A stretch of DNA of 64,000 nucleotides from contig RSEE01000007.1 of assembly GCA_003971905.1 (NCBI GenBank), positions 744,001-808,000 on the forward strand. Reading direction: 5' to 3'. This DNA is from Moniliella sp. 'wahieum'. Lineage: Eukaryota. The notes below the pieces were generated by a model, which saw nothing but the letters and a program-made list of their open reading frames with translations, had not been told where the DNA came from and searched no databases. Made by a program: the position numbers and the translations under genes. Shown here piece after piece: positions 7,321-52,714 of this stretch (its first letter is position 1; every line of letters begins with the position of its first letter).

Positions 7321-7412
7321 GGGTTCGTGGTGTAGTGGTATCATGCCTCTTTAGGGTGAGCGCATCTGCTTTCTCGTAGAGGTGGTCCTCGGTTCGATCC
7401 CGGGCGGACCCC
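7321..7412 (+). tRNA. tRNA-Pro(AGG) with 20-nt intron (7357-7376)
   Basis: Acceptor GGGTTCG/CGGACCC, anticodon stem CCTCT/AGAGG, AGG at 7353-7355, T-arm CTCGG-TTCGATC-CCGGG, TTTTT downstream. Confidence 0.93.
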
Positions 7413-29500: not shown

Positions 29501-30928
29501 AACGATGACGACGCGTGCCACAGAGTCAATCAAGCCGGTTGGCCCCGAGGTGATTGTGTTTGGGTTGCAGGAACTGATTGATCTGGAAGACAAGCGATTG
29601 ACAGCGAAAAGTTTTGTTGGGCAAGAAGTCGACGACCAACAAGAAACCCGTGGGCAACGACGTGGGCGACCGCATCTCGCACCAATATGCCGCCTGGCGC
29701 ACCGCGCTCATCACCGCCGTCGCCGACATGTTTGGGCAGGGCAAGTACGAGCTGGTGCAGTCCGAGTTGCTAGTGGGCCTGATGACGTGCGTGTTTGTCT
29801 CGGTGCAAGAGATTCGCGCCGGCACCTGTCCGAAGCGGCGGTGGGAACGGTCAAGACCGGCTTTGGAGGTCGGTACGGCAACAAGGGCGCTGTGGCAGCG
29901 CGCGTCGTGCTCGACGATACAAGCTTGTGCTTTGTCAATTGTCATTTGGCCGCCGGCCAACGCCACGTCCAAGCGCGCAACACTGATGCCGCTACCATTC
30001 TCACCGCACCCAAACTCTTCCCCAAAAGCGCCGCGGCCGCCAGCACGCTCCCGCCCGGACCCCACACCGCCCCCGGACCCATTCCCCCGGCACTGCGTCG
30101 CACCCTCGCCTTTACCCGCGGCGGCGACGGCGAGCAAATCTTGGATCACGACATTGTCTTTTGGAGCGGCGATCTGAACTGTGCGTCCCTTGCCCCTTGT
30201 CCCTTCCCCCTTGTCCCTTTGCTTTGCTCTTTGCCCTTTCGCCTGTGGTGACGAGAAATGTAGCGCTAACATCGGGATCGCGTCTGGTAGATCGGATCGA
30301 CCTTACGCGAAACGAGACGCTGGGGTACCTGCACACTGGCAACCTCGCCGCTCTTCGAGATGTGGACCAGTTGGGCAGCCAAACTTGTGGCAATGCGAGT
30401 TTTGCGCTGCGCGGGTTTGTCGAAGCGCCAATCGGGTTTGCGCCGACGTACAAGTACAACCACCTGTCTTGCGAGTACGACACGTCGAGCAAGCAACGTG
30501 TGCCGGCGTGGTGCGATCGGATCCTGTGGTGCGATGCTGGGGCGACGTTCCCGTCGAGGTGCGTGCGCGAGCACGACGCAGCGGACGACAAGTTGGTGGA
30601 GCAGGTGCTGGGTGCGGCATCGACGCCCGTGCCAGCTCGCGAGCCGGCGTTACGGCCGCGGCCGCAGTCGGTGCAGGGCCACAGCTACCGCTCCTGGCCC
30701 GCTAGCATCTCGGACCACCGCCCCGTGTCGAGCCAGTTTGATGTGCGCGTGCAGCGCATCGAGCCGGGCAAGCTGGCTCGGCTGCTGCCGCGCTTGCGCC
30801 AAGAGTGGGCAGTGGTCCAGGCCGCGCGGCTGGACGAGGCCAAGCTTTTACCACACCAGCATCCCCAGCTAACTACCCCACGCGGTCCCCTCCCTGTCCT
30901 GCTCCTTTGCCCTTCTATGGCGCGGTAG
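26517..30928 (+). CDS. Inositol polyphosphate 5-phosphatase with low-complexity N-terminus and WD40-like region
   Basis: VFGLQELIDLE, GNKGAVAAR, FVNCHLAAGQ, VFWSGDLN, FAPTYKY, RVPAWCDRILW, SDHRPVS. The start is uncertain. Confidence 0.92.
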
Positions 30929-33691: not shown

Positions 33692-33926
33692 CAACCGACG
33701 CAGCAGCCGCGTCGACGGAGAGGAGAGGCGGTGTGGTGGTGGTGGTGGTGGCCAGCAAAATTCTTCCGCCCTCGACGTCGCCGAGCAGCGGAGAGAAATG
33801 ATCGATGGCTTCGATGACTCACCGCCGCCAATTGGGGCATCACGTGATCCGGCGCCGCTTCTCTCGCCGGCGCCGTCTGTCTGCGCGCCTGCTTGGCCGC
33901 CGCGCACACCACCGCCAGTGGCGACG

Positions 33927-34917
33927 ATGGCTGGGCTGCGCTCTGCGGTGGGCATGCCGCCGCCCGTTCTGGCCTCGCCTCGCCGCTTCGTGTGCGGGCG
34001 CATGGTGTCCTCCACCGCGTCCGCCTCGGCCCCTCCCCCCGTACCCCCGCCAGCGGCCGTGCCCCTTTCGGGCGCGGGCGGCAAGGAGAGCCGGTGCGCA
34101 TCTATCGCTATGCCGTCGATGCGCACGGCCAACTTTTTCTGCACGACACGCCGGTCAAGAACATGGCGGTAAGGTAACCATCTCGCGCTTCGTCTTCACC
34201 CCGCTTGCTATGTTCTTGCCTGGGCACAGCCCCTTTGCTGTTGCTTCTCGCTGACCCGGCCCCGCTGTTGGCAGACGTGCTACAAGGACCTAGCCTTTCT
34301 TGATTTTTTCTTTGTCCGAATCAAGCCCAACCCGTACCCGGCGGCATCTCTGTCGGAATTGGTCGAAACGCTGGGCTGTGCGGACAGGAGCCCGGCCAGG
34401 ATGGCATCCCGGCATGGGACCGTCACGACTGGCCCGAGCAACTGGTATCGCACAGCTCCCCTAGTGCGACCAAGCCGAGGTGGAGCGCGTGCGGCCGCAG
34501 ATAGCCCAGCGCTGGGTACAGGTACCTGAGCCCTTGCATGGGCGAGCTGAACTTTGTCCGTCCCACTGAGCCGACGGGACGGCGGTGGTGTACCGCGACC
34601 TGGTTCCTTGCCCGAAAGCGCCCAGTGACTTGTCGCTTTTGTGGGCAGGCCGACGATTGGAGCCGTTTGAGCCAGCGCGCTTGACCCTCCATCCTGAAAC
34701 CGGACGGATCTACCACCCGTCCCCACGGCCGCTCTTGCGCGCCGGCATGCCCGTCTGCGCCCTGTCCGACTCGCTCGTCTTGCGCCACCTGGCGGACCGG
34801 TTGGAGTTGGTGGAAGAGCCAGAAGACGGACCATCTGCCGTTGCAGCTATCTGCATTGGCAAAGGAACTACTACCCTATCTCTGCCTTCGCCCCAGCGTC
34901 CCAATCAGACGGCATAG
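33927..34917 (+). CDS. C8orf82/UPF0598 (DUF4505)-like protein, probable mitochondrial presequence
   Basis: RIYRYAVDAHGQLFLHDTPVKN /intron/ TCYKDLAFLDFFFVRIKPN..YRYLSPCMGELNFV..VVYRDL..ETGRIYHP. Confidence 0.85.
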
Positions 34918-35404
34918 CACTGTGATCTCCCCGTTCGCACCATCTTCCTCGTCTTGCTACTGTATTATCCTTCTACGCCCTTCCCCCTGCAGGGCAGAAG
35001 GAAGGTTTTTGTTTTGATGGCACGCATGACCGGCACGAGTACAATCATTTCTGCGGGAGCTTCAGTTGAAGCCTGCTGCAGAGGCAAGGTGCCATGGTGA
35101 TACATAGGTACAGTGGGGTGTGCAGACACCAATGCAGATGCGAGGGAGACGGAACAATGATCAGGAGGGAGAAGGAGAAGGCCACGCCCGAGAAACAACA
35201 TCAACGCCAATGCCAATATGGTATGACCCTGTGGTCCACACAGGATATAGAAGTCAGGAGCGGGGAAAGGGGAGGGGCAGAAAAGAAAATGGCGGGGAGA
35301 CCGGTGCCCCGATGGGCGACACACGGTGGAGCAGCGTGGCGAGTGCGGATGAAGGGTTTGCCTGGAGGGGGATCCGAAGGAACAAGGTTGGAGAGCAAGC
35401 CACC

Positions 35405-35686
35405 CTAATGTCTTGATTGCAAGGTCCAGCCTTGGGTGAATGCAGGAAGTTGAGATGATGTGGATCGAGAGTGGAAGGGGGGGCGCGAGGGGGCTTGTTC
35501 AGCAATGCTTCGTCTGCTTGACAAGGCCGAGGAGAGGTCTTCAAGATGGCGATGGGGCCAGAGAGGACCGTTATCGGGAGCACCGGGGCGGCAAGCGAGG
35601 AAGAAGCCGCAGTTCTTGCACCGCTCCCAGTAGTAACTCACATTGTACTTGCAGTTTGGGCACCGGAGCTGAACGCCGCCAGACAT
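35405..35686 (-). CDS. Small zinc-ribbon protein A (C-x2-C-x10-C-x2-C)
   Basis: MSGGVQLRCPNCKYNVSYYWERCKNCGFFL; ATG preceded by CTGCAG|CTCAACC and a pyrimidine-rich leader. The C-terminus may be affected by indels. Confidence 0.6.
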   Translation of the reverse strand: MSGGVQLRCPNCKYNVSYYWERCKNCGFFLACRPGAPDNGPLWPHRHLEDLSSALSSRRSIAEQAPSRPPFHSRSTSSQLPAFTQGWTLQSRH

Positions 35687-38600
35687 GGTTGAGCTGCAGT
35701 AGGAGAGGCGGGCTGGGTCGGGGGGTTGGGTGGGTTGGTTGGGTTGAGTTGGGGTGGGGGGCAGAAGGCACGCGTGCGTCGAAGTGGGGAGCGAAGGAGA
35801 CAGCCAGGGGTGGAGGCGGTAGGTAAGGCCTCAACAAAGGAGGCGGATCGGCCAGGGACAGAAAAAGAGAAGCGAGACGGAGGGGGCGCTGGGCAGCGCC
35901 TTTAACCAGCGGGCAGTCGGGCAAGTCCGGGGGAGAGAGGGGGGACTGTGCACAGCACTGTACCTGACACTGGCGCCGTGCTGCGATGGTGCCAGGCTGA
36001 GCGCTCGGTGCGCTGCCTCAGCGAGGCTCAGCGCCCGGCCCTCAGCGGCGCAACGCGTCGCACGCACGGCGTACTGGCGCCGACAACCGTCGAGTATGGC
36101 TACCCCAGGGCGCAGGCTCAGCGCGCAGCCGCCCACGCCGCTCTCGGCTGTGGGGGTGTGGGGCTGTGGAGTGCGGGGATGCCAAGCGAAAAAGAGGAAA
36201 GAGGGGGCAGCGCAGGCGAGCTGCCGCAGTGCAGCAGCTCGCGCCGTTTTCGTTTCCGGCACCACAAATCCACACGGCGTGTATTGTCCTAGGAGCAGAG
36301 GGTACGTGGCAGTCCCACGAGGGACGGGGTGCTGGGTGCGATTGGGAAGGTGCTATCCCCCCACACCGCCTCCCTGCCCCGCGGCCCGTCGCGCCGCAGC
36401 TCCCGATTAATCCCACGGTTGAGCGTTGGCTCATAATTGTTGCCCCAGACGAGAGGTGCGCCCACCGTGCCATTGTACTGCTTCGCCCATCGTTCGCCAG
36501 CTACGCGTCCAACGCTGCTCAAGCTTTAGTACCTTGAAAAGGCTTCCAGGTGACGGGGGTGAATCATCCGCCACCGTGTCGCTCTGCGCAGAGAAGCATC
36601 ACGCATCGGCATCCATTGTCAATTGTGCTTGTCTCCGGCTGCGGCTGCGGAAAACAAGGGCCAACAGACGGTGGAAATGAGGCGGTGGAGATGAGACGTT
36701 GGGGGACGCTGAGGCTGAGCGCTGAACGAACGTTGCAACGTCCAACGCCGCGCTAGCGTTGGATGGCGGGGGGCGCGAGTGTGGAGAGTCTCTCCGTCGC
36801 GGGTTGTGGGGCGGAAAGGGGCGGAGATGGAATGATGGGTGATAATCGATAATGTTAGCAAGAGGGGAGGGGCGGGGTAAGCACCGGTGAGTGTGGCATC
36901 GTGGTAGTAGCACCTAGTAGGCTCTCGGACTACGTAGCAGTCTCGGGAGCTAAACAAGTGGAACATGGTCCTCCAGGAGAACCTAATAGCGGCCCTGTCA
37001 CCAGTCACTAGTGTCACTCACTCTCGAGCTGATGGTACGCAACTCCGAGCCGGCGCTGCTGCGGACTGCGACTCCAAAAGAAGCTGCACTGCCACTTTTT
37101 CTTGTCCATGCCCATCTCCATTCCTCGCCGGGCCCATCGGACATCCATCGAGAGACGCGATGAAACATCTCGCAGCTTCAGCACTCTGCTTTTGCGTCAT
37201 CTATCACATACGTCATGCAGAGTGCCGCGAGCGCGCGAGCATCACGCAGGGGTATTATTTTACACGCCACCATATAGGAACACCACTGGAACACCCCAAT
37301 TTCCCCAGGCTGTTCGCTGCCTGAACACACCGCCTGGCAAGTAAGTCTGACACGCACTGTTGAGAGATGGCATGACATGCACGATCCAGTCCTTATTTGG
37401 GGCGGAGGAGGCTCCGAGGCTCTCCCGGAGGGCTGGGGAGAGGTCCGGTGGTGTCATTTGCGTAGCATATTATCCTCTCTTCTCTCACCAGGGGGGGTGT
37501 CTGCTTACTTTCAGTTTCCTTCAGCGGTCGTCCCATTCAAAAGTGCAGGTCCCTACCGTGGTATATAGCCTGTGGGAGAACTGCGCTACTGTTGGTACAC
37601 ACACCACTCGGCACGTGGCGCGCGCGGATGGCGGGGGCTCCCACATTTTAGGTGGGCTTCAGCGCCAAGCACACAGAAAAGGGTGTTGGAGCAGTAGGTA
37701 TTGCCCCATCTTTGGAAAACGTGACGGATGACAAGTGGCAAGGGGGAGGCTATATACGCTCTAAGTATGATGTGAAGCTTCAACTTGAAGGCTAAGCCTT
37801 ATAGCGCTAAGCATTGCCGTAGTAGACTAGGGCCTAGCCCCACCTAGTCTACGTATGGCCCAACTGCCAAGACGAGAACTTTTGCGTCTCAACCAGCGCC
37901 GGCCCATCAGCGCTGAGGCTCAGCACACAAATTGCGGAACATGATGGTCCAGACGCAATGGGGTAGTCTTTTGCGCCCCCAGCACATGGTCTCTTCCTCC
38001 TTCTTCAGTGTACATATTTTGTACATGATGCTTGATGGAAGCAATAGATATGTTTTCCCTCCGTTCTTCTGTTGTTTTCCTCTTGTTGTTCGGCCCCACC
38101 GTGCATTTCCGAATCGCTTGTTGTTTTTTGTAGTTGGCCTCAGAGCACATGTGTGCAGTGGGTTAATTGTATGGTAGAGAGTCCGTGCGGGCGTTTTCCT
38201 GTTGAATTCATTCGAAGCAGGAGATGGGAAAAGAGATGTGAACAAAAAGTAAATGCACACCACTGACAGTGACCTGGCCCGTAGCTGAGAGACTCTCGGC
38301 CCAGGTCCCACAGGTCCAAGCGTACATGTTCGTGGATTTAGACGCGAAAAGGAGGAATACAGCCATGGATGTTCACAGGGTTGTATGAGGGCAACAGCCA
38401 TTGACGTAGTCACAGCCCCTGTACAGCATTCTTTCGATGTTACATGTTATAGGAACAGGAGGGGTGCGCACTACGAGTGATGCAACGCATATACGGAAGC
38501 CAATCATGTGGTGCACATTCGCTGTTGCACACTAAGGGTTGTATTGGTTTCTTCTTATAAGTATACCTAAGAGCCTGTGTCTCTCCCCTGGTGCCTTTCG

Positions 38601-41600
38601 TCCTTGGTCCTCACTTCTTCCCCTTGACTCATTTCCACTTTACACTGTAGACCTGTTCTCTTTCACCTTCTCTTCTCATGAATAAAACCTGCCTGTGTCT
38701 TATACATCCCAAATGGTGATGGCCAACAAGCCGACTAGCACTTCTTTCCCCTCTTTCCCCTCTTGAGGCACTCCACTGTAGAAGAACCTCCCTTTCAATT
38801 AACAGTTACCCGCTTTCACGTCCGGCGCCTGGGCCTATACGAATAACATGTGTGTACACAAAACCTCTTCCTTCTCGGACGCTGCCTGGCTCTGCCCGAC
38901 GATACAGCAAAGCACTATTTGTGCATGTCCCCCCCCCCCTAAACGTCCATTGCAGAGGTCATCTCATGGAGACACTCCGCCCTGGAACTCATGGCCAGAC
39001 GCAACGTTCGAGAGACCGTGGAAAAGTCCGGTTGTGCTGATCGGCGTCATCGCGTTTTCTCTATATCTTCAAACTTCATTCTTGATAGGCGCGAACGTTT
39101 TAGTTGGAGAACTGAAAGCTGGCTCTGTAATGCATCGTGCATGATCCTACCCAACAGTTCAATCACCCCACGCATGCCTCTTCCGTTGTCTCGAACGCTC
39201 CGATTGAAGAGTCCATCTCAGATCTCACACGGCCATTTGTTTGTCTGCCGGTAAGACTGGCTTGCCATGATACAATGCATGGCAAGCCCTCAGGTCCCTC
39301 AGGCCTCACCTCAGCTGAGCCTCAGGTTTCAGGCAGCCCACAGAGTACCTCACCTGGCCCAAACGCCGATCCGGCCAAGACCAGGGGAAAGGGTATTTCG
39401 GCCATAGACGAGATCTCGAATCAAAAAGCACAGCTGCGCTCTTCTCTGAGCGAGCACGTGGTCCTACTCTGATGCTCTCATTAGGGGGAGTAAAGAAAAA
39501 AGCCGTAGGCCTTGTCTCTTCCTTTACGTGAACGATTTTTCTGATCGCGGACCAAATACGAAGGCTACCGTCTGTATGGCGAAGATATCGAGATATCAGG
39601 ATAGGGGGGTCGCGCCGCGCAACGAGTAGGATGCATTTGATGGCGGCCGCGACCGCAGCCCCGACGGTGGTGGTAATTTCGTACAGTACGCACATAGGGC
39701 AAAGCTGGCATAGCATGATCTCATGATCTCGGTATGGATTCGGTGCGCGACGTGTGTATACGTACCCTGAAAAAAATAGGAGACACGCCACGCACAGCCG
39801 CGGGTGTACCTCGTATAAAAGCAAACAATCCGTCCCGCGTGCGCGATCGCAGGGCAGGGACTACATAGGGTGCATCCGCCAATGCGCCCGTGTCTTGCCG
39901 CGCTGGGCTCCTGTCTCGCTCTGCAAAGAGAGATGCCATAGTGAAACAGGCTGTTTTCTTCAAGTTCCTAGCTTCCTATACCCCACACGCCGTGAATCTT
40001 ATTATTGTGGATAGCTTATTATCCGACGGGTATATTATCGGATCTTGGGGATCCCCGCCTGTCCTCACTCTTTGGCGTCTCTGAGCACGAATGAGATCTG
40101 AGATCTGAGAGAGTTCCGTTGGCGGCGGGGGTTCTAGATTCTGAATTCTCGATCGTTACCCTCTCCATCTTACGATCGCGGGCGCGGCCGGATGTTTCGT
40201 ATGTTGGCCGTCGGCCATGCGCACAGTTGGCTACGCATTACGCTCCTTTCTCGGATGGGCAGCAGATCCTCCTGGACGCGACCTGGAGATGGATTGTTGT
40301 ACGTAACCGTTTTTTTGTGTACATTTTGCCCACAACACGCCATCTCGACTTGGCACACGGCCCAATACCTCTCATCTAGAGGCCTTACTCACGGAACATG
40401 TGACAGGGCAGTAGATTGTATACCCGGCTATGTGTCAGTGTATTAACTCCTGTGCAGTTCGGCATGCCTTTCTCTCCTGTCTCCCTTTTCTCTCTTGAGT
40501 CCCGCTGCCCCTATCCCCCCTTATCAAGGTGTTCGAATACCCTGTCCCGTAGTTCCCAGGGCTTATTTGGGGCTCATGGTCACAGGAGGCCACGTGCTAT
40601 ACGGCCCCTCTTGCTGCACCTCGCTCACAGAGAGCTTTGTTGTATGGAGAACTGTGTGGAGGGAAGTCGTATTAGGGATGAGCTTATTCAAAGATGATTG
40701 TATACCTTTCTTCGCTACTCACCCTCTCGGCCTTATGCGAACGCCCTGGCTCCTCACCTCTCTAAGCATTACTTACAGGAGACGCATTTCGTGAATCGTT
40801 TTACTAGCCAGCAAAACACGGCGTTTGGTTATATCCTTCCCGCACCCCTCCCAAAAAGCATCTAATAGCATATCACCGTCTTCACTATGAGTGAGAGCAT
40901 GCTACCACCACAGGATCGCGACGCGACATGAAACATCATGATCTGTGAAAGAAAAACGAAAGTCACTGGGAGGACGGACAACGCACGCGGGGGGAGGGAG
41001 TGACACCCACCGCATACTGGGCGTCCATTGAGGAATGAAGAAGGAGAGTTGAGCCCAGCGCTCACAATATAGGAGGTGATACGCGTCCCTGCTGACCTGT
41101 TTGCGTTTCTATCAGTGAAAGAACGCGGGGTAGGTGAACGTTGCTGCACTACAGAAATTGTGGTCTGAGCAAGGACGGTTCAACTTCGATCGATATGAGT
41201 ATAGGGTGTATATAATTTCTTCTGAAGTTCTGTCCCGGCAAGGGCATCAGAGATACTTCCCACATGTCACAAAAGGTGGGCGGACTGGTTTAACGGGAAA
41301 GAAAGCAGGACGCCCTCCCGAGGCCGGAGAATGATTGGAACTCTTTTGATGAGAAAGGGGCTAGGCTAGGGGGGTATGGAGATGTGCATGGAACCTCATC
41401 ATCCGGAGCAAAGAAATTCACAGCCGGCGGATCCTTCCAGAGCCAGTGTGCGGTCGCGCTCACTATTTACACAGAGACGGCAAAAGACCATATGGGATGG
41501 GAAAATGAGACCGAAGACCTAAGCCTGATGAGGTTTGAGATCTGTGGTCTGAGGTCTGAGTCTGATGCCGGCCTGGGATCTTGAATGATTAATGAGTTAA

Positions 41601-42469
41601 TGAGGGAAGAGCGCCCACGAGCACGTTAAACACGCACAGTTTTTCTGCACGGTAATTTTTTATAGTCAACAAGACAGAGTGTGGATCCGGCGAGCTCCTG
41701 GTTGTTGGAGCGTGTACGGGGCAGTAGGAGAACGACGCTGCTGGCGAGAGAGCACAGCTTGACGGCCCCGCTCCGCGGCGGCACCGCTTTCCTGCTTCGG
41801 CGGCAGGTCCTCTATAGTCACTATTTAGTCAACGCCATAGTCACTGTAATCGCTCTCTTCAGTCCTACTAGCACATAAACGCAACAGAAGAGTCTACCGA
41901 AACAACGGGGTTCCACTTGGTCCCACGTGGGTGTCCCCACACTGCGTCAACTCAACGTTCAACGTTCAGCATTGAACACGTAACACGTCGCGGGTTCCAC
42001 AACGCGGGCATGTGCCTTCCAGCACAGATGCCCGAGCTGTGGTGTTGAGATCCGGTGGACCTTTGCTCTGCCGTGATGCATGATGGAAGTACTCTACGGC
42101 GCAACGTCCCACAAGAAGATCTGTCGGTGGAAGAATGGCAGTGTTTGGAAGAATCGCACTATTATACGAGCGCCTTCTATTAATGACCAGCTTTCTTCAA
42201 AAGCTCTCAGATCTCTCATAGGCTCTCACGCGTCTTACGGCCCCCGTTTTGTCAACATGACTAGATGACTTGTTCTCGGGACAGTCTATAAGCCGGTTGT
42301 GGGGCGCGTGTGCCCACCACCAGAGAGACTGACTATATTTGCTACCTGTTACTCGTACAGGGAGCATCAGGCTCCAGGCCTCAGGCCCCAGGGAAGACCA
42401 TACACGCCCAAACGCACACAAAAGACGGACCAATGACTCATTACTCACATGGAACGAGAGAGAGAGACT

Positions 42470-42543
42470 GGGAGACTCCGATTATACTCACGCGGAAGAC
42501 GTCGGTGGGAGGCTCCGATACTCTCAACGCGGAAGACGTCGGC
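42470..42543 (+). repeat. Imperfect 37-bp tandem duplication
   Basis: gggagactccgattatactcacgcggaagacgtcggt / gggaggctccgatactctcaacgcggaagacgtcggc. Confidence 0.85.
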
Positions 42544-45215
42544 GGAGCGGGGGGGGGGGGAAGGTGGCCATTCGGAGCCCTTCGGCCGCGCCGGTACGAC
42601 TCAGAATTAACGCGACGCGTACGAAGCTTTTATTAATGGTGGACCCGGGTCGCCTCTCCTCTATCCGTTGGCAGTCTCACAGCGAAGTCAATACAAAGCC
42701 CAAACTACATTAATGACTAGGTGGGCAAAGGCTGCTGGCTCAACGCCTCAACGTTGTTCAACGCTTCTCCTGAGAGGCTGAGGCACACGCACCGCAGTCA
42801 TCGATCCCAAAGTGCTACGGCGCGCACATTTGAGGCGTTGAGATCTGAAGCGAGCCAGCACGGAGAGGGGAGACGTTTCTCTCTGTTTCTCCACTCCCCC
42901 CCACCTCCCACACCCCACAGCATATGTGCGTCCATGCGCATGTGTGCTTGCTCAGAACTTAGAATAGATCTCTCTTTTGGGGAGATTCTCACACCAAAAG
43001 AGCACTCCACCTCACTAGCAGCTTCACTCTGTGGCGTAGTGGATTGAGCATTGATGGCCTGGATTCTGCGATGGCGAGACGACGTCGTTTTTGTTGGGAC
43101 CTGTGGTCCCGTACTTAGGCCAAGGTGCCTCATCACCCTTCACCCCTGATTTGTCCTCCCAAGCCTCCACATGTATACTCAGGCTTGTTTGAACCCCTGT
43201 CTCTAGGTGTGGCACAAGGCTTAGACCTCAACCATCACCATCGCGATTGCATTGCTCTACATCTCCAGAGGTTCTTCACCCAATCCCTTGGGTTCCTCCG
43301 GTCTTACAGTTTTTTTGCATTCTTCCTTACAATACCTGGAAGAGTTTTCCCGGCTTCGCCGCTCCGACCTCAGTGTCTGGGTGGGCTCCACACTTGAGCC
43401 AACCTGGAAGTGTGGATCGGGGCATGGCCATCTGGCCGCGGGGTACCGCGTTCGAATATAGGTCCTCTCTTCGTGCAGGCGCATACATAGAATACGACAG
43501 ACATGTGGCGGCCGGTGGGGCATTGCAGCGGCCGGGGTATATATTTGTGCTAGTATATACACCCTGCCCCACCCCATGGAGAGCGCCATCACTAGCACGA
43601 TAGTATAGCCGTGACGCCGGTGGTGACGCGATGTGGGGTGTGGATGCGCGGAGCCTCGACAGAGAGGAGGGGCTCAGGGTTGGAGAGCACTCACTGAGTA
43701 CTGAGCTGGGGAAACGAGCAGGACCACATCCCCGCCATGTGTCCAATCCCTACTCTTCCACTTTCATCATAGTGGTGAGCACCACTTTGGGGAGCATACG
43801 ACTTGGGCAGGAGCCCCTGATTCTCGCTCTGGTTCTTCATTGCGTGTGTACGGAGGTCCCCCTCGCAGGTCGCCTGCTCTCGTCTCTGCCCTTGGGCGTC
43901 CCCCACTTTTTGATGTGGAGTGGGGTTCTCGTTGCGGCGCCAAGCTGGGGCGCAATGCTGTGGCAAACGAGAGCGCATCCGCACAGGGGGGCAGGCAGTA
44001 GGAGGTGGAGTAGGTCGTAGTCACTAGTCACTAGTCACTATCACTAGGCACTGTCGTCACTCGAGTAGTCACTAGAAGCTTGAAGCTGCGGCGCAGCGCT
44101 GCGTGCTGAGGCTCCGCCCCGCCGCCACGCGCCGAGCGAATGGCCGTCGACTGGCGCTGTGCCAGCGGCCCTAACCCTGCGCACACCCAAGGCTTGCCTT
44201 GGCATTCCGGCCTAGGCTGTGTTTGTTAGGGCAATGTGCAATGTTCAACGTTCCCTCCGCCGTGCTCACAGCGATCGGAGGAATGGATCGAGATGCATCC
44301 GATCCGGAGTAGGTAAGCGCGCTGATGCATGCACGCCTTCCTTCGCCCCTGCTTGCCTGCTTGACATGGCACGGGCGATGGATGTCGTGCGTTCACCGAT
44401 GGCTGGGATGGTCGATGGCTACGACTCGATGGGTGGATGGCTCGGATGACGCGATGATCGATGACGCTGGCCCAGCCCAGGGCGTTGGCCTGGGGTGGCC
44501 CGTGGACGGCCGAGCTGCTCGATGGTGCGAGAGCGGCTGTGAAGCTCAGCAGAGTGAGTACTAGTGAGTACTCAGACTGAGTACTGACGACTGCGATGCA
44601 CGCCCCCAGAGTCGATGGCTGATCGATGACGCTGGCCCAGCACGGGCGCTTGGCATGGGATGCTGCCGGGCGGCGCCCTATGGCCCCATGCGACGAGGCG
44701 CATCGCGATGGCCCAGCCGCAGGCAGTGCGTGCTGGTGCCTGCGCCGGTGCGCCCCCACCGCTGCACCACGCCGCACCACCCGCACCACGCCCCCCCAGC
44801 ATGCCCTGCCATGTCAGACGGGTGGCCTCCCCAGGCAGCGCGCAGGATGCATGACGCATGACGCGTGAGTGTGAGCTGGGGCACGATTCCGCTGCGCACT
44901 GGGCACTGCCCCTGCGCATCCGCGGCATGCTAATCACCCATCCGCATGCGCCTGCGCAGGCGCTGCCCCAGCGACCGCCTGTGCTGCGGTGCCCGGGGCC
45001 CCCCTGGCGGCGCCTCGCTCTAATGCAGAATGGGGGGCCCGGCATGCGCGGCGCCCGGGCAGTGTCCGCGCCGGCAACGTGGCCGGCGGTGGGCACTGGC
45101 GTGCTGCCTGCGTGCCTGGGCCGGCCGTCTTGGCTGCCAGCATCGCCCCAATCGCCCGCTGCCACCGTGCCGAATCGGGGCCCTGCGCCTGCCCCGGCCA
45201 ACGCCCGCCCGGGGA

Positions 45216-45755: not shown

Positions 45756-46818
45756 GCCTCGTTTCCTCGCTCCCCCACTGTTTTTATCCATGACCGTATG
45801 GGTCTCTGCGTGCCTCGCGCGCACGCACGCCCTTCACCCGCCCCCCCCGGTCTGCATTTTCTCTCGCCGCATCCCCATGTCTCTGCTTCATACGTCTCGC
45901 ATCGCCCCCCCCTCTCCACCCATCGTTTCCCGCACTCCTCGCTTTGTCTTCCCCTCGCTGGATTGGATCGTTCCGTGTCGGGCGCTGTGCCTCGGCTCCC
46001 AGATCTCAAGCATGAGCCCATGACCTGAGCTGGCCCCCTCGCACCCCGGCCTTGGATCTGTCACGTTTCTCTGTGCGGTTCACCGGGCGGGCTTTGGACG
46101 GCTCGCTTGGTCCCGTCTGCGCACGAGCCACGGCTTGTGGGTGCCTGGCTCGTCGCACCTCCCTCTCCGCTCGTCCCGCTGTATTTTCTCAGCATATACC
46201 TCTCGTTGCTGGTCTGGAGCGCTGGCGCTCAGACGGTTCTTATTTGTTTGTTTGAATGTACCGTACCATCTTTTCTCTGGAACTTGGCTGGGGGTTGGTC
46301 TGTGCATGGTATATTGGTCTGGTTCAGCACTGCAAGGTGGTCGAATCGCGTGAAGCTTGAAGCTTGACAGGTCTCCCAGCTGCTCCGGGGACTGGTAAGC
46401 GCCCAAACGCTGCTGCCCAGCCACGCCTCAAGGAGCACTATGGGCACGCTGTCCTGACGTACTGAAGGGCAACGTTCCCATTGCCAGCGCTGGGCGCTCG
46501 GGGAACTTTTGGGCTGCGGACGCTAGAGGGCGGGACTACCAGTTACTAAAAACTAGTTGCTACTGGCGGGAGGCGGATGCGAACCGCGCAGCGTCGAACG
46601 GGATGGTGTCCTGCATGGCAATGTCAAGGGTCACTCACGAGTCAGGCACTAGTCACTGGTCACTAGCTCACTCTCCATCGTCTCGCGCATCCGGCCCCAG
46701 GCCCAGGGCCCCAGCTCAGCACAGCGCTGAAGCTGAACTCAGCATTGCTTAACGTCTTAACGTTTAACTTGGTTGCCGAGAGTGGCGCTTAGCTTAGCGC
46801 GCTAAGCTTAGCTTTCAG

Positions 46819-47028
46819 TGTGACCACCAGTGGTCTAGAGCCCATCGGCCTTCAGTGACACGTGGCCCGATCCACACAGTGCACCGGGGCAGTGAGTTCC
46901 GACCCTTCCACGGGTTTCCACTGGCCTCCAGGCCAGGAGCCTATCAAGGCCCATAGCTCTAGCTCTCCTTAGCTCTTGAATGCCATCTCCATCGACCATC
47001 GCCAGCATCGCTAGCTAGGCCTGTGACA
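46819..47028 (+). repeat. 5' LTR (210 bp)
   Basis: Matches 51876-52085 except for two 1-nt indels. Confidence 0.97.
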
Positions 47029-47042
47029 GAGCTACAATCTGA
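47029..47042 (+). other. Putative primer-binding site complementary to the tRNA-Tyr(GUA) anticodon arm
   Basis: GAGCTACAATCTGA directly follows the LTR; its reverse complement is TCAGA-TT-GTA-GC-TC. No TGG is present. Confidence 0.65.
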
Positions 47043-47175
47043 AGCACCCCACTGGCGCAAAGGATCAATACTCAGCACCACCATCGGCGCCCACCGTCAC
47101 CACCACCACCCCAACGCCACCATCGGCACCACACACCAACCAATTCAAAAAAAAACAAAGGAAAAATCAGCCACC

Positions 47176-48408
47176 ATGCCCCCCGAACTGGAAGAAAACA
47201 CCCCTCCTCCCGAAGTCTCTGTCATCGAAGAGGCGCAGGACATCGACGAACCGACCACCACCCCTGTCTCCGACCCGACCTGGCAACAGGCCCTCACCGA
47301 CGTCAGAGACAACCTCCTCGCAAGCACCCGCGCGTTCAAGCCCACCAGCGCTGACAATCTCCGCTCCACATGCCGCTCGTTCGCTACGGATGCACACACG
47401 GCGGCGTATGGACCGAAGAGCAAGAAAACACCGGGCGGAAAGGAAAATTGGATCTACACGCTCACCCTCGCGTTGGAGAAATATGTATTGGCCGTTGAAT
47501 TCACGAAGCCGCAAAACACCCGTGAGGCCCTTGCATCCGCGAGTGAGGACATGGCCGAGCTTCGCCACGCTGAGAAACGCGCGTCAAAAGAGATCGAGCG
47601 TACCAACGCGACGCGCAAGGACGCCTTCCGCGACCCCACCGAATATGTGCTCTGGGAGCCCTCCATCCTCAACATCCTGGACCGCATCCACCCCGCCGCG
47701 AAGGACATCGTTCGCTCCGGTCCATCGTCACCACACTACGACTCGTCCCTCGATCTACGCCTCCAGAACCTTCTGTGGTCCCACCTCCCGAACGACGTTC
47801 AATCTGCCATTATTGCACAGGACAACGTTGACACGTCAGCTGACTTGCTCCGTGCCCTGCGAAACAAATACGGTACGGTCGACTGCAAGACGTATCATGA
47901 ATTGTCCAGTCGCTTTCACCACTGCTACCAAAACCGGCGCAGCGGGAGCGCGTTCCTATCTGAAATGGGGACGCTCCGCAACCGGATCAGCGCAACCACA
48001 CCGATGTCGGACGAGCAATTCCGCCGTATCCTCGTCGGGGCCCTCCGCGACCCTGGTGACCGTCGCCGCCTAGAGCACATGACTCTGGCGGAGACAATGC
48101 AAGACGTGGAGAGAATCCCAGCGGACCCAGAGTACAGAATTCCGTACCGGGGCCGTCACCCCCGGACCGCCAACTCGGGCGCTGGCAAACACGACAGCGC
48201 GGGATCCCAGCAGCATAGCGGGGGTCCTCCTGCCGGTGCATCTCCCCGTAGCGGGGGTGCTCTTGCGAGAAAGCCGTCCGGCCACACCGGGGTTCCTTCG
48301 AACAACAAATGGCACCGCAACAGCTCCGCGCGAGCGCACATTGCCACCGAAGACGACGTCTCCGAAGGGGAGACCCTGTCTGTGGACCTTGCCCTATCTG
48401 ACAAATAG
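47176..48408 (+). CDS. gag: Gag (410 aa, no CCHC knuckle)
   Basis: GCCACC-ATG start; copia Gag-like helical region (SADLLRALRNKYG..FLSEMGTLRNRI..ILVGAL); ends at TAG 48406-48408. Confidence 0.85.
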   Translation: MPPELEENTPPPEVSVIEEAQDIDEPTTTPVSDPTWQQALTDVRDNLLASTRAFKPTSADNLRSTCRSFATDAHTAAYGPKSKKTPGGKENWIYTLTLALEKYVLAVEFTKPQNTREALASASEDMAELRHAEKRASKEIERTNATRKDAFRDPTEYVLWEPSILNILDRIHPAAKDIVRSGPSSPHYDSSLDLRLQNLLWSHLPNDVQSAIIAQDNVDTSADLLRALRNKYGTVDCKTYHELSSRFHHCYQNRRSGSAFLSEMGTLRNRISATTPMSDEQFRRILVGALRDPGDRRRLEHMTLAETMQDVERIPADPEYRIPYRGRHPRTANSGAGKHDSAGSQQHSGGPPAGASPRSGGALARKPSGHTGVPSNNKWHRNSSARAHIATEDDVSEGETLSVDLALSDK

Positions 48409-51400
48409 GAACTCGCGGGCAACCAGGACATCCAGTCTCGTCACGACTCGGGCGCGGATCCTAGCATCTGGAAGGATCTCAGGGTATTCAAAACCCTCAA
48501 GCCCAGCAACCGCTCAATCGAAATCGCTGATGGAAAACATATTAAAGCCAGTGGACGCGGAACATGTAGCATCGGTATCAAGTGTACCGACGGCAAATGT
48601 ATCCATGTAGACCTACCCGGCAGTCTATACGTCCCCGGCATAGCAAGCAATCTCACGAGCGTAGCGCAAATAAGTGACGCAGGCCACGCATCCTGGTTCG
48701 CCCCCCACCGAAAAGGTATCTGGTTAAATGACAAGCATGGCAAATATCACCAAATCGCGGATTCCTCATACAAGCTGAACATCGTCCCGAAACCGACACC
48801 CACAAACGAACACGCGGCCAAAGCTGCCGTCGCCACCCAACACACCGCAGCCAACACCATCGAGCACGTCATGTACGTTCACCAACAGTACAACCACGCC
48901 GCGCTAGACCTACTCCCGACACTAACCGCCAACGCGCGAGCGAGCCTCCGCGTCAGCCCTGCCCAAATCCGACGCATCCGCCCCTTCTGGCATTGTCCCA
49001 CCTGCACAAAAGCTCTGGCCAAAGCGCCCAGCCACCCTTCGCGCCACGGCCGCCGCATTTCGGAACGTCCTTTCGAAGTACTGCACGCCGACGTAGTCGA
49101 CCTCCCTCGCATCACTGGCATGGGACATGGATACGCCCTGGTCGCGGTTGATGACTGGAGCCGTTACACCTTCGCTGTTCCCCTAAAGACGAAAGGACAA
49201 GCCACGGCGGAGCTGAAAAAACTCATCACCCGCGAGCAACGCATCGGAAAGGACCGTCTGCTTCGCATCTTGAAGACAGACAATGCCCCCGAGCTCACCA
49301 GCGCACTCCGTCCGTTCCTTGAATCCGAAGGTATCACGACGGAAACCACCATACCAGGCCAAAGTCAATCAAATGGGGTGGCCGAGCGAGCCATCCAGGC
49401 AATCACCACACGCGCGCGCCAACTCATCATCGCCTCGGGCCTCCCGACATCAAACTGGTGGCAGGATGCCTTGCTGGCAGGGTGCTGGACGCACAACCTC
49501 ATGCCACCGACATCTCCACGCCAGGGCACACAATCTCGGGCTGAGCTGTACAAGGGGTCACCCCCACCGCTGCCAATGCACGCCTTCGGATCCTTGGCGT
49601 ACCTTCACCTGGCCCAGGACCAACGTGACCATAAGCTCAGTCCGCGGGCTGTCGAAGCCATGCTCGTCGGGTACGACGCAGGTCGAGGTACAAAGGGTTG
49701 GCGCTGGGCTGTGTACGACCCGTCCATGGGCACGTTCCGATCCCAATGGGCAAAACCATACAAGTGGACCCAGCGCCAATACCACGAGGTTTTCCCCGAC
49801 CGCTTTCCGCCTGACGTATCTCGCTTCCCCGCTCAACCCCTGCCTGACAGAACTATGACTGACACTGAAACCAAAAAGGGAGAAGAAAAAATGAACAAAA
49901 TTGAAGTTGCAAATCCCAACACACCACCGAGAATCAACACTGATACTGACGCGACCATCGCAAGACAAAACGACACCCATCCAACCACCCCCACCACCAG
50001 ACGGTACCCCGCCCGGACCCACCAGCGCCGTTTTGACCTTGACTGGGCACAGCTCCCCGTAGCGGACGACCCTCATGATGGTGACTTCCACGCACACGCT
50101 GCCGCGCTGCCTCCGGTTCCCCTCCCTGACGGTAGTCGTAGTCCTGCGATCGGCCTACGCTTCCCACTGCCCGACACTGCCCTGCCCGCGTACAGCGACG
50201 GTCTCCATCCGCCTGAATACAAGGCGATGATCGCCCTTAGCGAGCCAGGGCCGCACGAGCGCATCCAGCTCACCAAGGACGGAGTACCTGTTGCACCCAA
50301 GACAATGAAGGGCCTCCAATCACACCCCTCATTCGAACCAGTGCTGGAGGCGATGCGCACGGAAATCGACACCCTAGCCCGCTACGGCACATTCGAAGTC
50401 GTCACGCCCCCTCCAGACGCAGCTGCTGATTGGTCTATGGCGCATCAACACCAAAACGGACGCGGACGGAAATTTCCTACGCTACCGAGCCCGTCTCGTT
50501 GCCGGGGGCCACCAGCAGGATGCTGACACATGGGGACAAACATTCGCCCCTGCCGTGCGCACTCCTGCCATCCTCAGCCTTATCGCCCTTGCTGGAAAGT
50601 TCGGCCTCCACCTCTTCACTGCTGATGTGCACTCTGCCTATTTGAACGCTCCCCTCACGGAAAAAGTGTACCTCCGCCCACCCCCATTCTTTCCCGAGGA
50701 AAAAGGCAAGGTCTGGCGTCTCCGGAAAAGCCTATATGGCCTCCACCAATCCGGCGCAAACTGGGCGGTATTCATCCGTGACTTGCTCCGCGGAGACATG
50801 GGTTTTTACAATCTCTGGCTGAGCCGTGCTTGTTCATCCGACCCCGTAAAGGCGACACGGTCCTCCTTGCCGTGCACACCGACGATCTTCTCATCGCCTG
50901 CACGTCTCACGCACGCTACGATTCCTTCCTCACTGAGATCAACACCCATATCGAGGTGCGGGGAAACGGCCCCCTACACTACCATCTTGGCTGCCAGTAC
51001 GACACCATAAACGGGAAACTGTACCTTAGCCAGCCAAAATTCATTGAGGAATCCATTGCCAAACATGAGGTTCCGCCACCCCTGGTTATGGGCCTCCCCC
51101 ACCCCAGCAAGATGATCCCCGCGCGCACCGACCCCAACCGCCCGCACTGCCCGCCGAGAGACGCGACTATCAAGCCAAAGTAGGATCTGGGCTGTGGGCT
51201 GCCCGCATGTGCCGCCCTGATGCGCTGTTCGGCATCTCAGCTCTAAGCCGAGCAACTGCCGATCCCTCCAAGGCCCACCGCGCTGCGGCAACAAACTTCC
51301 TCCGCTACCTCTACGGTACCAAGGGCTACGGTCTCCGACTAACACCCGAGCCTAACGCACCCGCTCTCGCGCTATACACGGATGCCGACCTGGCTGGAGA

Positions 51401-51881
51401 CCCTGACCAATGGCGTTCCACGTCGGGATGCCTGCTTTTCGTCTACGGGGTTCCAGTGTCCTGGAGGAGCGTGCGTCAACCCAAGAGCGTCACCAACACT
51501 GCTGCGGCCGAATATACGGCGGGATATGAGGGCCTCATTGATGCGAACTACGTTAAAAACATCTTACTGGAGCTCGGTGCCATCACCTCAGACGAGCCCA
51601 TACACTGGTACTGCGACAACATGGCGGCACTTGCCTTGGCCGAAAAAGTGGGCAGCACGGGCAAACTACGTGAGCTGAACATCCGGTACCACAACGTACG
51701 CCAGCATGTCGACTCGGGCGAAGTCAAAATCGCGCACATTGCTGGAAACGAGAACCCGGCCGACATCCTCACCAAACCAGCCACTAAGGTCTCACTCCTG
51801 GCCAACTTGCCTCGCCTCAAGCTTGAGGACGTTACAACCTTCCATCGTACCACTGAGACCTCTGGCCAGCGGGGGTGTTGA
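48409..51881 (+). CDS. pol: Pol: protease, integrase, reverse transcriptase, RNase H (RT part frameshifted in the assembly)
   Basis: PR DSGA, IADG, LYVPG..SNL.SV; IN HQQYNH..CPTC, LHAD, KTDN, NGVAER, GTKGW; RT DVHSAYLNA, KSLYGLHQSG, HTDD; RNase H YTDADLAGD, AEY, CDN, ADILTK; stop codon inside the 3' LTR. Confidence 0.95.
51868..51875 (+). other. Short polypurine tract (AGCGGGGG)
   Basis: Immediately precedes the 3' LTR TG. Confidence 0.7.
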
Positions 51882-52085
51882 CCACCAGTGGTCTAGAGCC
51901 CATCGGCCTTCAGTGACACGTGGCCCGATCCACACAGTGCACCGGGGCAGTGAGTTCCGACCCTTCCACGGGTTTCCACTGGCCTCCAGGCCAGGAGCCT
52001 ATCAAGGCCCATAGCTCTAGCTCTCCTTAGCTCTTGAATGCCATCTCCATCGACCATCGCCAGCATCGCTAGCTAGGCTGTGACA
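51876..52085 (+). repeat. 3' LTR (210 bp)
   Basis: TGTTGACC...TGTGACA followed by the TTCAG duplication. Confidence 0.97.
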
Positions 52086-52714
52086 TTCAGCGTAAAAAGC
52101 CAGCGCCTCAGCCCATCTTCCATCGTCCTGCCGCACCACAGGCCAGGCACAGGGCTGGGGGGGCTATAGGCTGGGCTAGGCCGTTCGGCCTTCGGAGAGT
52201 GCTGGTGATCTAGTGATTGACAAGGTCGAACTTGGGTGGCGCGGTTGCACCAAGCAGGCTCACGCGCTCACGTTCAGCAGGCCCACAGCCCCCCTGAGAA
52301 CAGTGGAGAGCAGTGGCTGCGATCGTTGCTTGGCATCGGGGGGAGCCGGGAGAAGGAGGCCAAGGCGAGGGTGGCTGCAATGGCTGATGGGATGGACGGT
52401 CGATGACCTCATCAACCTACCTCCTCGAGCGCCTCATTCAAATTCACCGGTCACTGGTCACCGGTCGCCCTGCCGCAGCTCACGTGTCACACACCCAAAC
52501 TGCCCTGGCCTGGAATTTCCGATTCGTGAGCTGGGAGCGTGAAGCGTGACGCGTGATCCGAATTGCCTTACGCAAACTACGTTTGAAATGTGACCTTGGC
52601 ATCCCCAGCCCCCCTTTTCTGGCACAAACTTTTTCTGGTGCGAGCGAGCGAGCAACCAACCCCAGGCAGCCCCCGGACCCCCCAATCGACAATCGTTCTT
52701 CAGAGGGGTGGCCT

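What the first reader, a model, noticed from the sequence alone, without database searches (positions are those of the whole stretch)
48360..48470. Copia gag and pol separated by an in-frame UAG: candidate recoding junction (readthrough or +1 shift)
Seen: Gag (ATG 47176) ends AAA-TAG at 48406-48408. The same frame is then open again through the protease (DSGA 13 codons later) and integrase, with no ATG until 48871, and the LTRs are essentially identical (recent insertion). Known: most copia elements have one ORF and Ty1 uses a +1 shift; a stop between gag and pol is rare (Candida Tca2 UGA, gammaretroviral UAG). Inference: Pol needs recoding. Caveat: the in-frame residues before DSGA (QSRH) are atypical, while the +1 frame is open across the stop and reads ...SSLV. 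One missing base would give LV(I/T)DSGA, so a +1 frameshift near AAA-TAG-G plus a deletion error is a real alternative. A weak possible pseudoknot lies downstream (48415-20 with 48435-41; ATCC 48430 with GGAT 48456).
Basis: partly seen in the sequence, partly recalled or inferred. Interest (0 to 1): 0.8.

Follow-up and report, generated by a model that had tools for sequence, protein, structure and literature searches.

The report
Copia retrotransposon with gag-stop-pol junction
A copia-type jumping gene has a stop codon between its coat gene and its enzyme genes, and a diverged copy from elsewhere has it too, so the family must bypass that stop, a rare but already described arrangement in fungal copia elements.

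Summary
A 5,267-bp Ty1/copia element (46819-52085) has 210-bp LTRs and a 5-bp TTCAG target duplication. Its 410-codon gag ends at TAG 48406-48408. The same frame reopens at once and reaches the protease DSGA 13 codons later. No in-frame ATG follows until 48871.

The stop is not private. A ~96%-identical copy in an independent public run gives a 410-aa Gag ending on the same residue and an intact 1,004-aa Pol, with no length difference at the junction. The two copies differ at fewer residues than neutral drift predicts, so Pol has been used in lineages that carry the stop.

The "+1 shift plus missing base" alternative is not supported. Neither is the proposed pseudoknot: folding, a pseudoknot scan and Rfam give nothing beyond chance.

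The window copy is broken, or mis-assembled, at three small deletions in RT/RNase H.

The best reading is programmed stop bypass, most likely UAG readthrough, as proposed for Tca2 and VdLTRE5. Both of those use UGA, and the mechanism is still unresolved for Tca2. This is a new, very divergent member of a known rare kind, of moderate interest.

The parts
46814..46818 (+). 5-bp target-site duplication TTCAG (left)
   Evidence: Read. The same five bases lie at 52086-52090.
46819..47028 (+). 5' LTR, 210 nt, TGT...ACA ends
   Evidence: 200-nt core 100% identical to the 3' LTR. 208 nt aligned at 99.5% with one gap. Ends read.
47176..48405 (+). gag ORF, 410 codons, no Pfam family
   Evidence: 0 Pfam families. 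P0003 from another run is 410 aa and identical at 385 of 410 residues. The atlas feature search gives copia-type Gag clusters at 0.88-0.90, a lead only.
48406..48408 (+). in-frame TAG ending gag; context GAC AAA TAG GAA CTC
   Evidence: A stop at the same codon is implied in the diverged copy, because P0003 ends on the same residue and there is no indel.
48409..48444 (+). 12 codons between the stop and the protease active site (ELAGNQDIQSRH), with no start codon
48445..48684 (+). protease beta-barrel (Pol_BBD), beginning at DSGA
   Evidence: Pfam PF22936, E 9.3e-12, residues 13-92 of the ORF that starts at 48409.
49063..49362 (+). integrase core (rve)
   Evidence: Pfam PF00665, E 1.5e-9, residues 219-318.
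49576..49728 (+). SH3-like domain after the integrase
   Evidence: Pfam PF25597, E 2.5e-9, residues 390-440.
50435..51069 (+). reverse transcriptase (RVT_2), split over two frames in this copy
   Evidence: Profile positions 19-139 lie in the frame-2 ORF 50378-51010 (E 4e-24). Positions 140-231 lie in the frame-1 ORF 50782-51183 (E 1.9e-6, 28.1 bits, under Pfam's 31.6-bit cut-off on its own).
50417..50418 (+). frame break 1: the window lacks 2 bases that two relatives' contigs have
   Evidence: table 4 (X1 and X2). The site lies in a short dinucleotide run.
50802..50803 (+). frame break 2: the window lacks 1 base that relatives have
   Evidence: table 4 (X1 and X2). The site lies at a homopolymer run.
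51131..51132 (+). frame break 3: the window lacks 1 base that relatives have
   Evidence: table 4 (X1 and X2). The site lies at a homopolymer run.
51132..51878 (+). RNase H / C-terminal Pol region (frame 3 in this copy), holding ADILTK
   Evidence: 241 of 249 residues are identical to the end of P0002. No Pfam hit. The ADxxTK end motif of copia RNase H is described in PMC5445492 (passage seen).
51879..51881 (+). pol stop TGA, overlapping the start of the 3' LTR
51876..52085 (+). 3' LTR, 210 nt, preceded by a G run (51871-51875) as a putative polypurine tract
52086..52090 (+). 5-bp target-site duplication TTCAG (right)

Best explanation
This is one copy of a very divergent Ty1/copia LTR retrotransposon family. 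In this family gag and pol lie in the same reading frame, separated by a single stop codon (UAG in this copy) 13 codons before the protease active site.

Most ribosomes stop there and make Gag. A minority must pass the stop and make Gag-Pol, which sets the Gag:Pol ratio. The most likely route is translational readthrough, in which a near-cognate tRNA decodes the UAG.

Shown here: the architecture; its presence in a second, diverged copy; and purifying selection on Gag and Pol between the two copies.

Inferred: that the bypass is translational readthrough. No known local signal was found, so if readthrough occurs it rests on the bare context (AAA before the stop, G after it), on distant sequence, or on a host factor. 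The same question was left open for Tca2.

The window copy itself carries three small frame-breaking deletions in RT/RNase H. It is therefore either dead or mis-assembled.
For: 1. Anatomy. The 5-bp target duplication, the TG..CA LTRs and the domain order protease - integrase - RVT_2 fit Ty1/copia. The TAG is the only in-frame stop before the pol TGA. No in-frame ATG precedes 48871, which lies past the protease domain.

2. A second copy. One 5,089-nt contig of run X1 covers 46866-51953 with 184 substitutions. Its 7 gap letters are all accounted for at 47146, 50417, 50802 and 51131. The only two close proteins found in the 5.8-billion-protein collection both come from a contig of 5,089 nt, the length of the X1 contig. 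I take them to be from that contig; this rests on the matching length alone. P0003 is a 410-aa Gag ending ...LALSDK, exactly as in the window. P0002 is a 1,004-aa Pol running from the ATG that matches 48871 to the end without a break. So a stop sits at the same codon in a copy whose Pol is intact.

3. Selection. Amino-acid differences are 25 of 410 in Gag and 40 of 999 in Pol. Under neutral simulation with X1's own substitution spectrum, 113 to 149 substitutions would change 78.8 to 103 codons, against 65 observed. Only 3 of 2,000 simulations at n=113 reached 65 or fewer, and 0 of 2,000 at n=130 and at n=149. The simulations also create 2.6-3.3 new stops on average, against 0 observed. In the 414 nt of gag where each change is listed, 11 changed codons are synonymous and 9 are not.

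4. Precedent. Tca2 has a gag-UGA-pol arrangement, and its Pol is made from the LTR-driven gag-pol RNA (PMC2194720: abstract, Background and Discussion read). VdLTRE5 has a UGA between GAG and POL (PMC3441728, passages). AA just before a stop is said to promote readthrough in yeast (passage citing Tork 2004 in 10.1101/2022.12.06.519325). Here the preceding codon is AAA.
Against: - No downstream structure was detected. MFE z-scores were -0.43 for 95 nt and +0.86 for 201 nt. My H-type pseudoknot scan was matched by 256 of 500 shuffles. Rfam gave 0 matches at E up to 1.
- The six bases after the stop (GAACTC) do not fit the CARYYA readthrough motif quoted.
- Only one further copy gives protein-level evidence. 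Its stop codon type and its protease region (48409-48870) were not visible to me, because the difference table was cut: 151 rows were not shown.
- The number of substitutions inside the compared codons is an estimate (113-149), not a count.
- The protease flank S-R-H is unlike all 113 relatives' sites, so a crippled protease cannot be excluded.
- For Tca2 the 300 nt around the stop did not drive readthrough in S. cerevisiae. Readthrough is therefore unproven even for the closest precedent.
Confidence: 0.5

Rival explanations
1. The stop is bypassed, but not by readthrough. Candidate routes are removal of the stop by splicing of a short in-frame intron, initiation at a non-AUG codon just after the stop, or a separate weak promoter or RNA for pol.
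For: Local readthrough signals are absent. The Tca2 authors considered splicing and found a weak junction promoter. A frame-preserving GT...AG span exists at 48358-48408 (51 nt), with CTGAC 7 nt before a TAG acceptor.
Against: None of the 13 frame-preserving candidates has a GTRNGY donor. The one host intron I could read uses GTGCGT ... CTAAC ... TAG. No ATG in any frame lies in 48409-48460. Free Pol would still have to be packaged. No RNA data could be laid on the region.
Confidence: 0.2
2. The stop is an inherited null mutation. The sampled copies belong to a non-autonomous lineage copied in trans by intact relatives that have one uninterrupted gag-pol ORF, as most copia elements do.
For: Of 113 protease sites in distant relatives, 94 have more than 150 residues upstream in the same protein, so a single ORF is the norm. 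Only two copies are informative. The protease active-site flanks are atypical. The window copy has three further frame breaks.
Against: Pol shows purifying selection between the two stop-bearing copies: 40 of 999 residues differ and there are no new stops. No uninterrupted relative closer than about 31% identity turned up in any search. The stop sits exactly at the gag/protease boundary, and it is the only one.
Confidence: 0.15
3. Pol really starts in the +1 frame (...SSLV), is reached by a +1 shift at AAA-TAG-G, and a base is missing before GAC in this assembly.
For: The +1 frame is open over 48083-48610. L-V-T fits the hydrophobic positions before DSGA better than S-R-H does: at position -1, T occurs in 1 and H in 0 of 113; at -2, V in 15 and R in 0; at -3, L in 4 and S in 0. 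This assembly, or this copy, does lose bases in short runs elsewhere.
Against: Two independent contigs (X1; and X2 record 3, 47945-48558) show no length difference anywhere near the junction. There is no known shift heptamer. The residues after DSGA are equally atypical, so the protease is simply divergent. Open alternative frames of this length are common in the element.
Confidence: 0.04
4. The TAG is private to this copy or is an assembly error, and has no biological meaning.
For: The assembly or copy has length errors or defects elsewhere. No run holding this exact copy was available to check it: 0 of the laid records were 99% or more alike.
Against: The diverged copy's Gag ends on the same residue. 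Its Pol was called only from the downstream ATG rather than as one long ORF.
Confidence: 0.02

Closest known systems
Tca2 of Candida albicans (Ty1/copia; gag-UGA-pol)
   Same: A copia-type element with gag and pol in the same frame, separated by one stop. Pol must be made from the gag-pol RNA by bypassing that stop. Local sequence gives no convincing readthrough signal (PMC2194720; review PMC7175516).
   Different: Tca2 has UGA, 280-bp LTRs and a length of 6,426 bp, and a purine-rich spacer plus a proposed pseudoknot. Here the stop is UAG, the LTRs are 210 bp and the element is 5,267 bp, with no purine-rich spacer and no predicted structure. I made no direct comparison with the Tca2 sequence. 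The closest relatives found anywhere are only about 31% identical.
VdLTRE5 of Verticillium dahliae (Ty1/copia; GAG-UGA-POL)
   Same: A fungal copia element with short LTRs (159 bp) and a stop between GAG and POL. It lacks the CARYYA motif, and its authors call the arrangement very rare (PMC3441728, passages).
   Different: UGA rather than UAG. Only two copies were described. I made no sequence comparison.
Gammaretroviral gag-UAG-pol readthrough (Moloney MuLV)
   Same: The same stop codon (UAG) followed by G, an in-frame pol, and the protease encoded just after the stop. Readthrough of about 5% is quoted.
   Different: MuLV needs an 8-nt purine-rich spacer and a pseudoknot. Neither is detectable here. 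MuLV is a retrovirus, not a copia element.
Fission-yeast Ty3/gypsy elements Tj1, Tcry1, Tosmo1-3 (gag-TGA-pol)
   Same: A fungal LTR retrotransposon with an in-frame stop at the Gag-Pol junction. The stop is conserved among family members and was shown to be essential for Tj1 (10.1101/2022.12.06.519325, passages).
   Different: A different superfamily. Those elements have TGA within a strictly conserved 8-nt context (GAA TGA CT). Here the context is AAA TAG GA.
Ty1/Ty2/Ty4 +1 frameshifting
   Same: Copia-type elements that limit Pol by recoding at the end of gag.
   Different: In those elements pol lies in the +1 frame and a specific heptamer is used. Here pol is in frame with gag and the heptamer is absent (the heptamers are recalled from memory).

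Membership tests
Ty1/copia (Pseudoviridae) LTR retrotransposon | Pol domain order protease - integrase - reverse transcriptase (RVT_2) - RNase H | tested here: met
   Pol_BBD, rve and SH3_retrovirus, then RVT_2, in that order along the element. The C-terminal region holds ADILTK.
Ty1/copia (Pseudoviridae) LTR retrotransposon | Direct LTRs with TG...CA ends and a 5-bp target-site duplication | tested here: met
   210-nt LTRs with TGT...ACA ends, and TTCAG on both sides.
Ty1/copia (Pseudoviridae) LTR retrotransposon | A Gag recognisable as copia-type | tested here: inconclusive
   No Pfam family. Only feature-based leads to TYA and Retrotran_gag_2 clusters at 0.88-0.90. No CCHC knuckle is seen in the translation.
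Retroelements with gag-stop-pol readthrough (MuLV type) | A single in-frame stop between gag and pol, with the protease downstream in the same frame | tested here: met
Retroelements with gag-stop-pol readthrough (MuLV type) | The stop is conserved among functional family members | tested here: met
   One further copy, about 3.6% diverged, has a Gag of identical length and end and an intact Pol. Selection test. Only one extra copy was informative.
Retroelements with gag-stop-pol readthrough (MuLV type) | A purine-rich spacer and a stimulatory pseudoknot just 3' of the stop | tested here: not met
   The spacer GAACTCGC is not purine-rich. The folds are not better than shuffles. In the pseudoknot scan 256 of 500 shuffles did as well. 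No Rfam match. These are in-silico tests on a single sequence.
Retroelements with gag-stop-pol readthrough (MuLV type) | A measured low-level readthrough product (Gag-Pol fusion) | not testable with these tools
   This needs reporters, ribosome profiling or mass spectrometry.
Short-context leaky stops (TMV-type CARYYA) | [quoted passage not shown] | tested here: not met
   The six bases after the TAG are GAACTC. The motif is as quoted.
Ty1-type +1 frameshift elements | pol in the +1 frame overlapping gag, with a shift heptamer | tested here: not met
   Pol from DSGA onward is in the gag frame. Relatives show no indel at the junction. No CTTAGGC or GCGAGTT lies in 48083-48470.

The most novel reading that the evidence does not exclude
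A second, unrelated fungal copia family (UAG rather than Tca2's UGA) that depends on bypassing its gag stop without any recognisable local signal: no leaky hexanucleotide, no purine spacer and no pseudoknot. That would point to a still undescribed, possibly general, stop-bypass route for fungal copia elements. The signal could be long-range RNA, a host or element-encoded factor acting on termination, or a tiny non-canonical intron ending at the TAG itself, since CTGAC lies 7 nt upstream of it.
Probability: 0.25. Interest if true: 0.6.

Novelty: new member of a known kind. Interest (0 to 1): 0.4.

Why it matters
How copia elements with an in-frame gag stop make Pol is unsettled even for the one studied case. 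For Tca2, the sequence flanking the stop did not drive readthrough in yeast.

A second family with the same layout but a different stop codon gives an independent system on which to ask that question. It has a very different sequence, and there is evidence that the layout is kept under selection.

For annotation, it shows that a 'broken' gag-pol in such elements need not mean a dead copy. Beyond that it is an expected variation on retroelement gene expression, not a new principle.

Tried and rejected
- Whole genome. None is held, so other copies in the host could not be counted. The window itself holds no second copy and no solo LTR.
- Sequencing runs. Seven runs were listed and 4 hold part of the stretch. 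No RNA holder was listed. None holds this exact copy: 0 records were 99% or more alike. The window copy therefore could not be polished, and expression could not be examined.
- Difference table. It was cut after position 47589 (151 rows not shown).
- Protein searches. The word-indexed searches returned only P0002 and P0003. No partial proteins from the short X2-X4 contigs are on record.
- Full HMMER scan. It gave 16,307 hits at E up to 0.001, but after P0002 and P0003 the best is 31% identical. That is too far to align the junction.
- Metagenome contig scan. 109 pattern matches, none confirmed.
- Earlier findings of this scan. Nothing relevant.
- Structure around the stop. Rfam gave nothing, and the folds and the pseudoknot scan were not above shuffles.
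- Intron hypothesis. There are 13 frame-preserving GT..AG spans, none with a GTRNGY donor.
- Stop-codon reassignment in the host. Rejected, because there is only one in-frame TAG in about 1,560 codons, exactly at the gag/pol boundary.
- Gao et al. 2003 (RNA 9:1422), the survey of gag-pol recoding. It is not held, and what I say of it is recalled or taken from papers that cite it.
- Two literature leads were irrelevant: PMC9744471 and PMC6875170, and PMC12810828.
Full report
**What is there**

The finding lies inside a complete-looking LTR retrotransposon at 46819-52085 (5,267 bp). A 200-nt direct repeat is 100% identical. Read out to the TG...CA ends, the LTRs are 210 nt each (46819-47028 and 51876-52085). 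The same five bases, TTCAG, flank the element on both sides. The two LTRs show no substitution, but they differ by two single-base length differences a few bases from their outer and inner ends. The window has no other copy and no solo LTR.

Pfam gives Pol_BBD (protease barrel), rve and SH3_retrovirus, then RVT_2, in that order. This is a Ty1/copia element. The surrounding DNA holds ordinary eukaryotic genes: a sulfate permease, an F-box protein, TCP-1, eIF2B-epsilon, an inositol-phosphatase-like gene and an aminotransferase. At least one canonical fungal-style intron is present, GTGCGT ... CTAAC ... TAG.

**The observation**

- Gag starts at the first ATG of its frame (47176, context GCCACCATGC). 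It runs 410 codons to GAC AAA TAG at 48406-48408.
- The same frame reopens at 48409 for 705 codons.
- The D of DSGA is the 13th codon after the stop and aligns to position 4 of the 81-position protease profile.
- The first in-frame ATG is at 48871, beyond the protease domain, and no ATG in any frame lies in 48409-48460.
- TAG 48406 is the only in-frame stop before the pol TGA at 51879. A reassigned TAG in the host is therefore not the explanation.

**Related copies**

No genome is held. Seven public runs were listed for 47900-48900, and four hold part of it. I laid those four on 46700-52200.

Run X1 has one 5,089-nt contig covering 46866-51953, with 184 substitutions and 7 gap letters. Those 7 letters are fully accounted for by four places: 3 in the A-run before the gag ATG (47146), 2 behind 50417, 1 behind 50802 and 1 behind 51131. 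X2 shows the same three internal differences, and its 614-nt contig spans 47945-48558 with 0 gaps.

Two things follow:
- The window copy lacks 2, 1 and 1 bases that relatives have. With those bases the relatives' Pol stays in one frame. Each place is a short mono- or dinucleotide run.
- No length difference exists anywhere near the gag/pol junction. The frame relation of gag and pol is the same in the relatives.

**The stop is shared**

Word-indexed searches of 5.8 billion proteins returned only two close proteins. Both come from a contig of 5,089 nt, the length of the X1 contig. I take them to be from that contig; this rests on the matching length alone.

- P0003 is a 410-aa Gag, identical to the window's Gag at 385 of 410 residues. 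It ends on the same ...LALSDK.
- P0002 is a 1,004-aa Pol. It starts at the methionine that corresponds to 48871 and runs unbroken through RT and RNase H to the same C-terminus. It differs at 40 of 999 comparable residues.

A gene caller that found one long open frame from the gag ATG would not have produced these two proteins. Together with the absence of indels, this shows a stop at the same codon in a copy about 3.6% diverged whose Pol is intact. I could not see which stop codon it is, nor the protease region of that copy.

**Selection**

In the first 414 nt of gag every X1 difference is listed. Eleven changed codons are synonymous and nine are not.

For the whole comparison I simulated neutral substitutions on the window's 1,410 compared codons, using X1's own substitution spectrum. 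The true number of substitutions inside these codons is not known exactly. My proportional estimate is 149, and 113 is a deliberately low bound.

| Substitutions simulated | Codons changed, neutral expectation | Simulations with 65 or fewer (observed = 65) |
|---|---|---|
| 113 | 78.8 | 3 of 2,000 |
| 130 | 90.3 | 0 of 2,000 |
| 149 | 103.2 | 0 of 2,000 |

The simulations also create 2.6-3.3 new stops on average, against none observed. No new stop arose in 148, 116 and 71 of the 2,000 simulations respectively.

Gag and Pol have therefore been under purifying selection along the path that joins two stop-bearing copies. This is hard to reconcile with the stop being a dead-end null mutation.

**The +1 alternative**

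The +1 frame is open over 48083-48610 and reads ...SSLVT just before the D codon. I examined 113 protease sites in the 148 distant relatives held. I dropped 11 sites by eye as low-complexity or second, non-copia-like sites.

| Position relative to D | Commonest in relatives | In-frame residue here | Seen in relatives |
|---|---|---|---|
| -1 | I, L or V in 100 of 113 | H | 0 of 113 |
| -2 | hydrophobic in nearly all | R | 0 of 113 |
| -3 | W or F in 98 of 113 | S | 0 of 113 |

But the residues after DSGA, which are in frame beyond doubt, are just as odd. D at +4 occurs in 0 of 113, and the H found at +6 in 102 of 113 is missing. No contig shows a missing base there. No Ty1 or Ty3 heptamer and no XXXYYYZ site lies in 48083-48470. 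Open alternative frames of 100 or more codons are common in this G+C-rich element, with 12 forward and 10 reverse. I conclude that the protease is simply divergent and the +1 reading is chance.

**Search for a bypass signal**

- The six bases after the stop (GAACTC) do not fit CARYYA.
- The 8 bases after the stop are not purine-rich.
- The 95 nt from the stop fold no better than shuffles (z -0.43; 67 of 200 shuffles did as well). The 201 nt around the stop do no better either (z +0.86; 154 of 200).
- My own scan for an H-type pseudoknot starting 2-12 nt after the stop found two 5-bp helices. 256 of 500 dinucleotide shuffles scored as well.
- Rfam has nothing at E up to 1.
- Of 13 GT...AG spans that would remove the stop and keep the frame, none has a GTRNGY donor. 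The most suggestive is 48358-48408, where CTGAC sits 7 nt before the TAG, but its donor GTCTCC is poor.
- The only favourable feature is the AAA codon before the stop. AA at that place is reported to favour readthrough in yeast (passage).

**What is known**

Tca2 of Candida albicans is a copia element with gag-UGA-pol. Its Pol is made from the LTR-driven gag-pol RNA. Yet 300 nt around the stop gave only 0.3% readthrough in S. cerevisiae, so the mechanism is called non-canonical (PMC2194720: abstract, Background and Discussion read).

VdLTRE5 of Verticillium dahliae is a second copia element with a UGA between GAG and POL. It lacks CARYYA, and its authors call the arrangement very rare (PMC3441728, passages).

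In-frame TGA stops are conserved in the fission-yeast gypsy elements Tj1, Tcry1 and Tosmo1-3, and the stop is essential in Tj1 (10.1101/2022.12.06.519325, passages).

The survey by Gao et al. 2003 is not held. Searches for copia elements with an in-frame stop turned up no UAG case. That covers only the library searched.

**Verdict**

The junction is real, and it is a family trait kept under selection. Pol needs a stop bypass. Translational readthrough of UAG is the most likely route (about 0.5). Another bypass route is next (about 0.2), then a shared null mutation (about 0.15). The +1 or missing-base idea and a private or erroneous TAG are unlikely.

The family is very isolated: the next relatives are about 31% identical. 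The arrangement itself is a known, rare one.

The window copy is either dead or mis-assembled in RT/RNase H. Five length differences against no LTR substitution, all in short runs, lean towards assembly error, but this could not be tested.

Noticed in passing
window 50417, 50802, 51131; LTR ends 46821/51878 and 47020/52078: This copy differs from relatives, and its own LTRs differ from each other, only by 1-2-base length differences in short runs. The LTRs show no substitution. That pattern looks more like long-read assembly error than decay, but no run holding this exact copy was available.
   Followed up: partly
window 30183-30291: This is an intron in an inositol-phosphatase-like gene. It splits the GDLNYRID motif, with donor GTGCGT, branch CTAAC and acceptor TAG. 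I used it as the single example of host splice signals.
   Followed up: partly
window 7321-7412 (+): A tRNA-Pro (AGG) gene of 92 nt. It is long enough to hold an intron, and it is the only tRNA in the window.
   Followed up: no
window 47029-47175: The leader between the 5' LTR and the gag ATG holds an A-run at 47147-47155 whose length varies among copies: 3 or 4 bases fewer in X1 and X2. I did not identify the primer-binding site next to the LTR.
   Followed up: no
window 47029, run X4: In run X4 a contig matching the LTR continues past the LTR end with 17 unrelated letters. This may be a solo LTR or another insertion site of the family in that sample.
   Followed up: no
window 33050-44570: This stretch of about 11 kb has no stop-free run of 250 codons or more on either strand, unlike the rest of the window. 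I did not examine it.
   Followed up: no
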